A stretch of DNA of 5,177 bases from a virus (Duplodnaviria > Heunggongvirae > Uroviricota > Caudoviricetes): the IMG/VR virus record IMGVR_UViG_2645727991_000006. The stretch is one strand, 5' to 3'. Position 1 is the stretch's first letter. Every line of letters begins with the position of its first letter. The notes beneath the pieces are model-generated. The model was given only the letters and a program-made list of their open reading frames with translations. It did no database searches and was not told the origin of the DNA. This document shows, piece after piece, positions 943-2,324 of this stretch. A program made the translations under genes and the position numbers.

Positions 943-1686
943 ATGACAGAGACAGAATCAGCGATTCTGGCGCACGCCCGGCGATGTGCGCCAGCGGAGT
1001 CGTGCGGCTTCGTGGTGAGAACGCCGGAGGGGGAAAGCTATTTTCCCTGCGTGAATATTTCCGGTGAGCCGGAGGATTATTTCCGGATGGCTCCGGAGGA
1101 CTGGCTGCAGGCAGAAATGCAGGGTGAGATTGTGGCGCTGGTCCACAGCCACCCCAGTGGTCTGCCCTGGCTGAGTGAGGCTGACCGGCGGCTGCAGGTG
1201 CAGAGTGATTTGCCGTGGTGGCTGGTCTGCCGGGGGGCGATTCACAAGTTCCGCTGTGTGCCGCATCTTACCGGGCGGCGCTTTGAGCACGGGGTGACGG
1301 ACTGTTACACGCTGTTCCGGGACGCTTACCATCTGGCGGGGATTGAGATGCCGGATTTTCATCGTGAGGATGACTGGTGGCGTCACGGTCAGAATCTCTA
1401 TCTGGATAATCTGGAGGCCACAGGGCTGTATCAGGTGCCGTTGTCAGCGGCGCAGCCGGGCGATGTGCTGCTGTGCTGTTTTGGTTCATCGGTGCCGAAT
1501 CATGCCGCCATTTACTGTGGTGACGGCGAGCTGTTGCACCATATTCCTGAACAACTGAGCAAACGAGAGAGGTATACCGACAAATGGCAGCGACGCACAC
1601 ACTCCCTCTGGCGTCACCGGGCATGGCACGCATCTGCCTTTACGGGGATTTACAACGATTTGGCCGCCGCATCGACCTTCGTGTGA
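943..1686 (+). CDS. K: Tail assembly protein K (gpK), JAMM/MPN+ plus NlpC/P60-like domains; drawn from the first in-frame ATG (248 aa); canonical annotation starts at ATG 1087 (199 aa)
   Basis: Frame 1 is open from 901 (TTG) to TGA 1684-1686. First ATG at 943, 4 nt after the L stop; second ATG at 1087, preceded by GGAGGA at 1071-1076 (10 nt spacing). HSHPSGLPWLSEAD (1144-1185) fits the JAMM pattern HxHx7Sx2D; the candidate upstream Glu (AESCGFVV, GAG 997-999) lies before the canonical start. NlpC/P60-like Cys in GVTDCYTLF (TGT 1303-1305), with downstream His residues (NHAAIY, LLHH). The 3' end matches the canonical 199-aa K exactly. Confidence 0.85.
   Translation: MTETESAILAHARRCAPAESCGFVVRTPEGESYFPCVNISGEPEDYFRMAPEDWLQAEMQGEIVALVHSHPSGLPWLSEADRRLQVQSDLPWWLVCRGAIHKFRCVPHLTGRRFEHGVTDCYTLFRDAYHLAGIEMPDFHREDDWWRHGQNLYLDNLEATGLYQVPLSAAQPGDVLLCCFGSSVPNHAAIYCGDGELLHHIPEQLSKRERYTDKWQRRTHSLWRHRAWHASAFTGIYNDLAAASTFV
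1071..1076 (+). promoter_or_regulatory. Shine-Dalgarno-like GGAGGA upstream of the internal (canonical) K start ATG 1087
   Basis: GGAGGA sits 10 nt upstream of ATG 1087. It lies inside the open K frame, so it may drive an internal or alternative initiation, or be coincidental. Confidence 0.4.
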
Positions 1687-2324
1687 AAACGGGGGCTGAA
1701 GCCATCCGCGCACTGGCCACACAGCTCCCGGCGTTTCGTCAGAAACTGAGCGACGGCTGGTATCAGGTACGGATTGCCGGGCGGGACGTCAGCACGTCCG
1801 GGTTAACGGCGCAGTTACATGAGACTCTGCCTGATGGCGCTGTGATTCATATTGTTCCCAGAGTCGCCGGGGCCAAGTCAGGTGGCGTATTCCAGATTGT
1901 CCTGGGAGCAGCCGCCATTGCCGGATCATTCTTTACTGCCGGAGCCACCCTTGCAGCGTGGGGGGCAGCCATTGGGGCCGGTGGTATGACCGGCATCCTG
2001 TTTTCTCTCGGTGCCAGTATGGTGCTCGGTGGTGTGGCCCAGATGCTGGCACCGAAAGCCAGAACTCCCCGTACACAGACAACGGATAACGGCAAACAAA
2101 ACACCTATTTCTCCTCACTGGATAACATGGTTGCCCAGGGCAATGTTCTGCCCGTTCTGTACGGTGAAATGCGCGTGGGATCACGTGTGGTTTCTCAGGA
2201 GATCAGCACGGCAGACGAAGGGGACGGTGGTCAGGTTGTGGTGATTTGGTCGCTGATGCAAAATGTTTTATGTGAAACCGCCTGCGGGCGGTTTTGTCAT
2301 TTATGGAGCGTGAGGAATGGGTAA
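1584..2324 (+). CDS. I: Tail tip assembly protein I (gpI); reads as 246 aa here, 23 codons longer than the canonical 223 aa (see findings)
   Basis: Track ORF 1584..2324. ATG at 1584 is exactly 497 nt after ATG 1087, as in lambda. The first 221 residues match my recollection of lambda gpI ([74 protein letters not shown]...GGQVVVI). Overlaps the K 3' end by 103 nt in a different frame. The 3' end diverges after the T-run at 2245-2247. Confidence 0.85.
2275..2300 (+). other. GC-rich hairpin (8-bp stem AAACCGCC/GGCGGTTT, 4-nt loop TGCG) followed by a U-rich tract (TTTTGTCATTT); terminator-like or mRNA-structure element at the I-J junction
   Basis: Read directly: 2275-2282 AAACCGCC, loop 2283-2286 TGCG, 2287-2294 GGCGGTTT (perfect complement), then TGTCATTT. 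It lies about 20 nt before the J ribosome-binding site. In canonical lambda this would be intergenic (I-J); here it falls inside the extended I reading frame. Confidence 0.35.
2305..2308 (+). promoter_or_regulatory. Shine-Dalgarno (GGAG) for J
   Basis: GGAG sits 8 nt upstream of ATG 2317. Confidence 0.55.

What the first reader, a model, noticed from the sequence alone, without database searches (positions are those of the whole stretch)
943..2060. K-I pair resembles a ubiquitin-like protein plus JAMM deubiquitinase-like peptidase module
Seen in sequence: gpI has a ~100-residue N-terminal segment ending [10 protein letters not shown] (Gly-Gly at residues 100-101, codons 1881-1886), immediately followed by a ~55-residue Gly/Ala-rich hydrophobic stretch ([56 protein letters not shown], about 1887-2057). 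The adjacent, overlapping K gene carries JAMM/MPN+ and NlpC/P60-type motifs. From memory, comparative-genomics work has proposed that I-family proteins have a ubiquitin-like beta-grasp domain and that the K-family JAB domain may cleave after it; the citation should be verified. This is a known prediction, not a discovery. As far as I am aware the biochemical role, including whether gpI is cleaved after the GG, is not settled.
Basis: partly seen in the sequence, partly recalled or inferred. Interest (0 to 1): 0.5.

Follow-up and report, generated by a model that had tools for sequence, protein, structure and literature searches.

The report
Lambda tail proteins K and I
This is the well-known tail-tip gene pair K and I of a lambda-like phage, in which a ubiquitin-like tag on protein I is removed by the deubiquitinase-like protease K during tail assembly; the idea was predicted in 2006 and has recently been reported as shown by experiment, so it is real but not new.

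Summary
The window is a lambdoid tail-tip module (M end, L, K, I, J start), about 96% identical to lambda-like phages. gpI matches lambda gpI except for one substitution and a C-terminal frameshift.

K (943-1686) has a canonical JAMM motif (E19, H68-x-H70, S78, D81) and an NlpC/P60 triad (C121, H187, H199/H200). All these residues are invariant or nearly so in 46 homologues down to 32% identity.

The remembered citation is Iyer, Burroughs and Aravind 2006. Cryo-EM papers see only the C-terminal part of gpI in virions and never gpK. A 2026 conference report says the Davidson laboratory showed that gpK cuts the ubiquitin-like domain off gpI.

One refinement. The family-wide conserved glycine is G96, in the motif PxxxG[A/S] (residues 92-97). 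This motif aligns with the C-termini of MoaD and ubiquitin. The G100-G101 pair is less conserved, so the cut may fall at A97|K98 rather than after G101. This is an inference.

Novelty: already known. Still open: the exact cleavage site and the role of the conserved NlpC/P60 domain.

The parts
943..1686 (+). Gene K (tail tip assembly protein K, 247 aa, stop included), a two-peptidase protein
   Evidence: ORF. Pfam Prok-JAB and NLPC_P60. PHROG 30 minor tail protein. RefSeq calls the orthologue a 247-aa 'C40 family peptidase'.
952..1236 (+). JAB/MPN+ (JAMM) metallopeptidase domain of K, residues 4-98
   Evidence: Pfam PF14464, E 9.5e-14. Weak match to the NCBIfam desampylase model, below its cut-off. 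PDB 2kks by sequence. Foldseek hits to 2kks, Pyrococcus JAMM1 and Rpn11.
997..999 (+). Catalytic Glu E19 of the JAMM motif
   Evidence: Translation. E in 46 of 46 K homologues chosen by homology.
1144..1185 (+). JAMM zinc-site motif H68-S-H70-x7-S78-x2-D81 (HSHPSGLPWLSEAD)
   Evidence: Translation. H68, H70, S78 and D81 are each 46 of 46.
1273..1614 (+). NlpC/P60 (C40) papain-like peptidase domain of K, residues 111-224
   Evidence: Pfam PF00877, E 5.8e-13. TIGR02219 phage NlpC family, weak match.
1303..1305 (+). NlpC/P60 catalytic Cys C121
   Evidence: Translation. C in 46 of 46.
1501..1542 (+). Stretch holding the NlpC/P60 His residues H187 (1501-1503) and H199-H200 (1537-1542)
   Evidence: Sequence read directly. 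H187 is 45 of 46, H199 is 45 of 46, H200 is 46 of 46.
1584..1686 (+). 103-nt out-of-frame overlap of K (C-terminal 34 codons) and I (N-terminal 34 codons)
   Evidence: In distant homologues the K stop lies from 45 nt upstream to 66 nt downstream of the start of the I match.
1584..2324 (+). Gene I (tail tip assembly / tail hub internal protein). 246-aa ORF here; 223 aa (ending at 2255) in relatives
   Evidence: ORF. Matches lambda gpI over residues 1-221 with one substitution, I163T. Pfam Lambda_tail_I.
1623..1874 (+). Ubiquitin-like (MoaD/ThiS-type) beta-grasp domain of gpI, residues 14-97
1857..1874 (+). Family-wide conserved tail motif P92-R-V-A-G96-A97 (PxxxG[A/S]); predicted end of the ubiquitin-like domain and candidate cleavage site A97|K98
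   Evidence: In 65 distant homologues: P92 64, G96 61, A or S at 97 58. Aligns with MoaD PPVTGG and ubiquitin RLRGG. The cleavage site is an inference.
1875..1886 (+).
   Evidence: G100 is 39 of 65 and G101 is 52 of 65. Length and sequence vary among homologues. pLDDT is below 50 in both models.
1887..2054 (+). Gly/Ala-rich hydrophobic region, residues 102-157; the two predicted membrane helices H1 and H2 of gpI
   Evidence: Hydropathy and composition. H1/H2 are described in PMC11101478. G108 is 65 of 65.
2055..2246 (+). Plug and beta-strand C-terminal region of gpI, residues 158-221, which sits inside the tail tip in solved virions
   Evidence: PDB 8iyk, 8iyl, 8k35, 8xcg, 9e7m. Residues 134/135-222/223 are modelled in PMC10721106 and PMC12617516.
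2245..2247 (+). TTT run with one extra T relative to relatives; shifts the frame of the last two codons of I
   Evidence: Alignment to E. coli CFSAN018748. The TTT version has 0 exact matches in viral contigs and the TT version has at least 120.

Best explanation
gpI is made as a precursor with several parts. Residues about 14-97 form a MoaD/ThiS-type ubiquitin-like beta-grasp. A short flexible Gly-containing tail follows. Next come two hydrophobic helices (102-157), then a plug and beta-strand region (158-223).

The C-terminal part inserts into the gpJ/gpL tail-tip cone. There it forms the trimeric plug that holds the C-terminus of the tape-measure protein.

gpK is a non-structural assembly enzyme. 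Its N-terminal JAMM zinc peptidase recognises the beta-grasp and its extended tail, as deubiquitinases and archaeal desampylases do. It cuts the ubiquitin-like domain off once gpI is docked in the tip complex. The ubiquitin-like domain and gpK are then discarded, and assembly can go on.

The ubiquitin-like domain therefore acts as a removable in-cis tag. It plausibly keeps the hydrophobic helices soluble and serves as an assembly checkpoint. There is no conjugation: no E1 or E2 is encoded here.

Shown here: domain identities, intact active sites, their conservation, and gene linkage.
From the literature: gpI's C-terminal part is in virions, gpK is absent, and K-dependent cleavage has been reported.
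Inferred by me: the scissile bond is most likely at the MoaD/ubiquitin-equivalent terminus V94-A-G96-A97|K98, not after G100-G101; the solubilising role is also my inference.
For: - Pfam domains on K and I above curated cut-offs.
- Exact JAMM motif and Cys-His-His triad at the stated coordinates.
- Conservation in 46 non-redundant K homologues chosen by phmmer, 32-100% identical: E19, H68, H70, S78, D81, C121 and H200 are 46 of 46; H187 and H199 are 45 of 46.
- Linkage: a K homologue lies upstream of I in 58 of 69 genome loci. Of the other 11, most are short or cut contigs and four are orphan I genes in other contexts, three of them satellite-like.
- The K JAB model matches Pyrococcus JAMM1, including its SAMP2 complex, and Rpn11.
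- Iyer et al. 2006 predicted exactly this processing.
- gpI is modelled only from residue 134/135, or from 101 in one study. gpK is not seen by cryo-EM in two virion studies and was not detected by mass spectrometry in one of them.
- The single gpI peptide in virion mass spectrometry has 9.87% coverage, which is 22 residues. Only the C-terminal tryptic peptide 202-223 has that length.
- For the site: P92 is 64 of 65, G96 is 61 of 65, A/S97 is 58 of 65, against G100 at 39 of 65 and G101 at 52 of 65. hhalign places the last residue of both MoaD and ubiquitin on A97. One study reports residues from 101 onward as resolved in the closed tail.
Against: - The experimental demonstration is available to me only as a one-paragraph conference summary. 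It gives no data and no cleavage site.
- Absence of density for residues 1-100 is also what a flexible, uncleaved domain would give. Ge and Wang 2024 interpret it that way.
- The mass-spectrometry argument rests on one peptide.
- The beta-grasp model has only moderate confidence (pLDDT 74) and a shallow alignment of close homologues.
- My attempt to model K and I together gave no confident docking: natural fusion P0305, pTM 0.39, NlpC/P60 part below pLDDT 50. So nothing here shows which bond sits at the zinc site.
- The A97|K98 proposal would put Ala or Ser at P1, where classical JAMM substrates have Gly.
Confidence: 0.85

Rival explanations
1. The cleavage happens, but at the diglycine the first reader flagged. 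On this view the JAMM domain cuts after G101, releasing ...AGAKSGG and leaving V102 as the new N-terminus.
For: Gly-Gly is the classical JAMM P2-P1 pair. In close relatives G101 is invariant and G100 is at least 90% conserved. G101 is still 52 of 65 in distant homologues. [quoted passage not shown]
Against: Many distant homologues have no Gly-Gly before the helix, for example GAGKFGQIIVG, GASKSPVVNIIVG and GSKDDVVGKIVLG, yet they keep PxxxG[A/S]. The linker between A97 and the helix varies in length. MoaD and ubiquitin termini align to A97. One cryo-EM study reports gpI resolved from residue 101, which could not be present after a G101|V102 cut.
Confidence: 0.3
2. The ubiquitin-like domain is not removed. 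It stays on gpI in the virion as a flexible, invisible domain with a role at infection, for example in the periplasm. On this view K acts on another substrate.
For: [quoted passage not shown] The F-pyocin preprint leaves open 'highly flexible or proteolytically cleaved'.
Against: The conference report describes K-dependent cleavage. The fold is a MoaD-type beta-grasp, not a hydrolase. Only a C-terminal gpI peptide was detected in virions, although the ubiquitin-like domain has several good tryptic peptides. The JAMM peptidase is strictly conserved next to the ubiquitin-like domain.
Confidence: 0.06
3. The NlpC/P60 cysteine peptidase domain of K, rather than the JAMM domain, cuts gpI. The JAB domain would then serve only as the binding module for the ubiquitin-like domain.
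For: The Cys-His-His triad is as conserved as the JAMM site. Most eukaryotic deubiquitinases have a papain-like fold. Iyer et al. raise this possibility.
Against: The JAMM catalytic residues are all intact and invariant, which is not expected of a pure binding module (MPN- domains lose them). The conference report attributes the activity to the protein with 'a deubiquitinating domain'. The closest structural relatives are active desampylases and Rpn11.
Confidence: 0.08
4. The beta-grasp is a ThiS/MoaD-like sulphur carrier, or a conjugated modifier that is activated at its C-terminal glycine.
For: The closest folds are MoaD, ThiS and SAMP. Iyer et al. mention possible thiolation.
Against: No E1-like adenylating enzyme, E2 or sulphurtransferase is in the window, which encodes only M, L, K, I and J. 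The domain is translationally fused upstream of a structural protein.
Confidence: 0.01

Closest known systems
Bacteriophage lambda gpK and gpI (TAPK/TAPI of Iyer, Burroughs and Aravind 2006; gpI is also called the tail hub internal protein, THIP)
   Same: Orthologues. gpI matches lambda gpI over residues 1-221 with one substitution, I163T. The DNA is about 96% identical to lambda-like phages, with the same gene order M-L-K-I-J. The domains, motifs and K/I overlap are the same.
   Different: An extra T at 2245-2247 replaces the last two residues (GR) with a 25-residue tail. There are a few substitutions in K.
Archaeal JAMM1/HvJAMM1 desampylases with SAMP1/SAMP2
   Same: A JAMM zinc peptidase paired with a MoaD-type beta-grasp whose flexible C-terminal tail ends in small residues. 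These are among the top structural matches for both partners. There is a weak hit to the NCBIfam desampylase model.
   Different: SAMPs are free modifiers conjugated through an E1. Here the beta-grasp is a linear N-terminal fusion that is cut once and there is no conjugation machinery. K also carries a second peptidase domain.
Bacterial JAMM enzymes that trim ThiS/MoaD-like proteins (QbsD with QbsE; Mec+ with CysO). Named from my own knowledge; not tested here.
   Same: Prokaryotic JAB peptidases encoded next to a ThiS/MoaD-like protein, which they cut at its C-terminal tail.
   Different: Those are sulphur-carrier pathways. Here the product that matters is the downstream structural protein, not the beta-grasp.
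Eukaryotic ubiquitin-ribosomal protein fusions (Ub-L40, Ub-S27a). Analogy from my own knowledge.
   Same: A ubiquitin-fold domain is translated in front of a structural protein, helps its assembly, and is then removed by a deubiquitinase.
   Different: No evolutionary continuity is implied. Different peptidase classes act, and the cargo is a ribosomal protein rather than a membrane-active plug.
Phage T5 pb3 plug domain; F-type pyocin PA0640/PyoF9 with PA0639/PyoF8
   Same: The C-terminal part of gpI occupies the same plug position as the T5 pb3 plug. In pyocins the gpI homologue is seen only from residue 127/128, and the gpK homologue is absent from particles.
   Different: In T5 the plug is part of the hub protein, and the papers read here describe no separate ubiquitin-like or JAB component.

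Membership tests
Lambda_tail_I / TAPI (Pfam PF06805) | Profile match above the curated threshold | tested here: met
   99.6 bits against a cut-off of 23.8, residues 14-97.
Lambda_tail_I / TAPI (Pfam PF06805) | N-terminal ThiS/MoaD-like beta-grasp fold | tested here: met
Lambda_tail_I / TAPI (Pfam PF06805) | Conserved glycine at the C-terminus of the beta-grasp, then a Gly-rich linker and a C-terminal TAPI-C domain | tested here: met
   G96 is 61 of 65. The linker and hydrophobic region are present. The C-terminal region matches lambda gpI in PDB 8iyk apart from the I163T substitution.
Lambda_tail_I / TAPI (Pfam PF06805) | Gene sits between a K-type peptidase gene and the central fibre gene J | tested here: met
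   Order L-K-I-J in the window. A K homologue is upstream of I in 58 of 69 loci.
JAMM/MPN+ metallopeptidase (Prok-JAB, PF14464) | Motif E...HxHx7SxxD | tested here: met
   E19, H68, H70, S78 and D81 with exact spacing. All are 46 of 46 in homologues. A few homologues have an 8-9 residue loop instead of 7.
JAMM/MPN+ metallopeptidase (Prok-JAB, PF14464) | MPN fold | tested here: met
   In the fusion model residues 1-70 have pLDDT 78-93. Foldseek hits to 2kks, Pyrococcus JAMM1 (5ld9, 5lda) and Rpn11, all with probability 1.00.
JAMM/MPN+ metallopeptidase (Prok-JAB, PF14464) | Zinc-dependent cleavage after the tail of a ubiquitin-like domain | not testable with these tools
   Reported for gpK and gpI only in a conference summary.
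NlpC/P60 (C40) peptidase (PF00877) | Profile match and a Cys-His-polar catalytic triad | tested here: met
   49.2 bits against a cut-off of 23. C121, H187 and H199/H200 are conserved in 45-46 of 46.
NlpC/P60 (C40) peptidase (PF00877) | Peptidoglycan or peptide hydrolase activity with a known substrate | not testable with these tools
   The substrate is unknown. gpK is absent from virions, which argues against a role in cell-wall digestion at infection.
Ubiquitin-like conjugation system (modifier plus E1/E2, as in Bil or type II CBASS) | E1-like adenylating enzyme and E2 encoded with the ubiquitin-like protein and the JAB peptidase | tested here: not met
   The window encodes only M, L, K, I and J. 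It is a processing pair, not a conjugation system.

The most novel reading that the evidence does not exclude
The second peptidase domain of K (NlpC/P60, with a Cys-His-His triad as strictly conserved as the JAMM site) may have its own substrate in tail assembly. [quoted passage not shown] The Ur-lambda paper says it is 'unknown how cleavage is catalyzed'. K would then be a dual-specificity maturation protease for the lambda tail.
Probability: 0.1. Interest if true: 0.6.

Novelty: already known. Interest (0 to 1): 0.22.

Why it matters
The K-I pair is a clear case of a ubiquitin-fold domain and a JAMM deubiquitinase-type enzyme working together in a virus of bacteria. They act as a one-shot assembly checkpoint rather than as a signalling system. 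This bears on the prokaryotic origin of ubiquitin processing and on how siphophage and F-pyocin tail tips are built.

For this window nothing new follows. The genes are lambda orthologues, the idea dates from 2006, and experimental support has been reported.

Three practical points come out of the work:
- The usual short annotations (K 199 aa, I 190 aa) hide both domains.
- The conserved end of the ubiquitin-like domain is VAGA (residues 94-97), not the Gly-Gly. This matters when designing cleavage-site mutants.
- The NlpC/P60 domain still has no assigned substrate.

Tried and rejected
- Natural K-I fusion P0305 with a block alignment: the JAB and ubiquitin-like domains were confident, but pTM was 0.39 and the NlpC/P60 part fell below pLDDT 50. 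No inter-domain docking could be read, and coordinates are not returned.
The viral-contig scan returned only loci 81-100% identical to the query, which were useless for co-variation. The genome scan with A5 gave the diverse set I used.
- My first K selection used the motifs themselves and was circular. I redid it by phmmer homology.
- Programmed frameshift making a K-I fusion (I is in the -1 frame of K). I rejected this. The K-I fusion proteins in databases are mostly singletons or tiny clusters (1-2 sequences), and the ones I read have differing junctions and internal deletions. I saw no X XXY YYZ heptamer in 1584-1686 by eye.
- The primary paper for PDB 8IYK (Wang et al., Structure 2024) is not held. 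The statement that gpI is resolved 'from residue 101 onward' therefore rests on Ge and Wang's description alone.
- P0166, a 2783-aa protein with 23 matches to the ubiquitin-like region, gave only spurious Pfam hits and was dropped.
- No full paper or preprint on K-dependent cleavage of gpI turned up in four literature searches.
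Full report
**What the window is.** The 5177-base window carries, on the + strand, five genes. They are the end of a minor tail protein M gene (46-240), L (240-938), K (943-1686), I (1584-2324) and the start of the central fibre gene J (from 2318). It is about 96% identical over its whole length to lambda-like Escherichia phages. 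It is up to 99.3% identical to E. coli prophages across the K-I-J junction. gpI matches lambda gpI over residues 1-221 with one substitution, I163T. The finding therefore concerns the lambda K and I genes themselves.

**Checking the observation.** Translation confirms every coordinate.
- G100-G101 of gpI are codons 1881-1886, within [10 protein letters not shown].
- Residues 102-157 (1887-2054) form a 56-residue stretch with 14 Ala and 11 Gly and sustained positive hydropathy.
- K has E19 (997-999) and H68-S-H70 (1144-1152), followed by S78 and D81. This is the exact JAMM spacing E...HxHx7SxxD.
- C121 (1303-1305) lies in a typical NlpC/P60 DCY context. H187 and H199/H200 complete the triad.
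- Pfam gives Prok-JAB (K 4-98), NLPC_P60 (K 111-224) and Lambda_tail_I (I 14-97), all above the curated thresholds.
- K and I overlap by 103 nt, out of frame.

**Are both K active sites real?** I collected 69 diverse genomic loci encoding gpI relatives, from Burkholderiales, Pseudomonas, Pantoea, Serratia, Haemophilus, Xanthomonadaceae and others. I picked K homologues by phmmer, not by motif. Fifty-eight loci have one. Among 46 non-redundant full-length proteins, 32-100% identical to this K:
- E19, H68, H70, S78, D81, C121 and H200 are present in 46 of 46.
- H187 and H199 are present in 45 of 46.

Both peptidase sites are therefore under strong constraint. The JAB part of a model (pLDDT 78-93) matches a prokaryotic JAB protein (2kks), Pyrococcus furiosus JAMM1 (free and bound to SAMP2) and Rpn11. 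The ubiquitin-like part of the same model matches SAMP1 and MoaD. A weak NCBIfam hit to the haloarchaeal desampylase model points the same way.

**What the literature says.**
- The remembered paper is Iyer, Burroughs and Aravind, Genome Biol 2006 (PMC1779556). It identifies the ubiquitin-like domain in tail assembly protein I and the JAB plus NlpC/P60 domains in K. [quoted passage not shown] At that time gpI was thought to be absent from tails.
- Cryo-EM has since placed three copies of the C-terminal part of gpI inside the tip as a plug under the tape-measure C-terminus. Residues 135-223 are modelled in PMC10721106 and 134-222 in PMC12617516. Ge and Wang (PMC11101478) describe the closed state as resolved 'from position 101 onward'.
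- gpK is not resolved in these two virion cryo-EM studies, and the mass spectrometry of PMC10721106 did not detect it.
- The virion mass-spectrometry table lists one gpI peptide at 9.87% coverage. That is 22 residues, and the only tryptic peptide of that length is the C-terminal 202-223.
- F-type pyocins behave the same way.
- A report of the October 2025 bacteriophage conference (PMC12908700) summarises a talk by Alan Davidson. [quoted passage not shown] I found no full paper.

**A refinement: where does the ubiquitin-like domain end?** I aligned 65 full-length-like sequences from the 150 best representatives of 50%-identity clusters; most are distant relatives. Conserved positions around the junction are:

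| Position | Conservation (of 65) |
|---|---|
| P92 | 64 |
| G96 | 61 |
| A or S at 97 | 58 |
| G100 | 39 |
| G101 | 52 |
| G108 | 65 |

The segment between 97 and the helix varies in length. Many homologues lack any Gly-Gly before the helix but keep PxxxG[A/S]. A profile of this region aligned to MoaD puts ...FFPPVTGG on ...HIVPRVAGA. Aligned to ubiquitin...LVLRLRGG lands on ...IVPRVAGA. The last residue of both falls on A97.

The pattern hydrophobic-x-G-small (V94-A95-G96-A97) mirrors L73-R74-G75-G76 of ubiquitin. If gpI really is resolved from residue 101, a cut after G101 is also excluded. I therefore consider A97|K98 (or G96|A97) more likely than G101|V102, roughly 55% to 30%. This is inference only.

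**Mechanism.** gpI is a precursor whose beta-grasp is a removable tag.
1. The C-terminal strands dock into gpJ and gpL.
2. The JAMM domain of K binds the beta-grasp and its tail and cuts it off.
3. The tag and K leave, and assembly continues with the tape measure and gpM.

A solubilising role for the tag, given the 56-residue hydrophobic segment behind it, is plausible but not tested. The system does not conjugate anything, because no E1 or E2 is present.

The function of the equally conserved NlpC/P60 domain is open. gpK is absent from virions, which argues against a role in wall digestion at infection. A second processing event is possible: gpI trimming, or the unassigned gpH to gpH* cleavage.

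**Annotation caveat.** RefSeq annotates the nearest orthologue of I as 190 aa, starting at a GTG that corresponds to window position 1683. A 2020 review worked with K as 199 aa and I as 190 aa. It therefore saw only 'a peptidase domain' and an 'alpha-beta-alpha-beta motif'. Most distant homologues begin at the equivalent of M14, so the true start of I could be 1623 rather than 1584.

**Verdict.** The feature is already known and has reportedly been validated by experiment. Interest is low. What remains open is the exact scissile bond and the role of the NlpC/P60 domain.

Noticed in passing
window 2245-2247: One extra T (TTT instead of TT) relative to the closest E. coli prophage. The TT version has at least 120 exact matches in viral contigs and the TTT version has none. 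It changes the gpI C-terminus from ...VVVIGR to ...[29 protein letters not shown] (246 aa). The new stop at 2322-2324 overlaps the J start at 2318. This is either a sequencing error or a private frameshift in a residue stretch that is ordered in virion structures.
   Followed up: yes
L099:2477-3145, L098:2495-3139, L100:2420-3100, L108:2270-3082: gpI homologues with an intact beta-grasp and the PxxxG[A/S] motif, but no K peptidase gene within 2.5 kb upstream. Three of the four sit in satellite-like contexts: integrase plus AlpA (Collimonas), a DUF927 primase-like gene (Pseudomonas), and a ClpP-capsid fusion (Yersinia). For the Glaciimonas locus (L098) the upstream ORF gave no Pfam hit. They may depend on a helper phage's K, or interfere with helper tail tips.
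   Followed up: partly
window 1584, 1623 and 1683 (alternative I starts); 943 and 1087 (alternative K starts): Databases hold gpI as 223, 210 or 190 aa and gpK as 247 or 199 aa. The short forms cut off the catalytic Glu of the JAB domain and the first two strands of the beta-grasp. Most distant gpI homologues start at the equivalent of M14 (window 1623).
   Followed up: partly
window 2270-2300: A strong stem-loop (GAAACCGCC-UGCG-GGCGGUUU) followed by a T-rich run, between the canonical I stop (2255) and the J start. Folding energy is -16.5 kcal/mol, z-score -2.7 against shuffles. It looks like an intrinsic terminator or an RNA-stability element inside the late operon. The simple terminator scan did not list it.
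   Followed up: partly
L112, L119, L120, L125-L132 and others: Lambda tail genes appear on contigs of about 1x coverage in genome assemblies of unrelated organisms (Streptomyces, Paenibacillus, Bradyrhizobium, Leeuwenhoekiella, Enterococcus and others). They give the same or nearly the same match statistics (37-39% identity to the A5 query). This looks like lambda control-DNA contamination rather than real prophages.
   Followed up: no
proteins P0009, P0013, P0014, P0017, P0286, P0305, P0362, P0382: Database proteins that fuse K (whole or part) to I, mostly singletons or tiny clusters (1-2 sequences). Each junction lies inside or near the K/I overlap but at a different place. They look like indel or assembly errors rather than a programmed frameshift product.
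   Followed up: partly
L103:2058-2420, L106:2048-2410: In Pseudomonas tail clusters a gene of about 120 aa, encoding a predicted lipoprotein (signal-peptide-like N-terminus with a Cys), is inserted between K and I.
   Followed up: no
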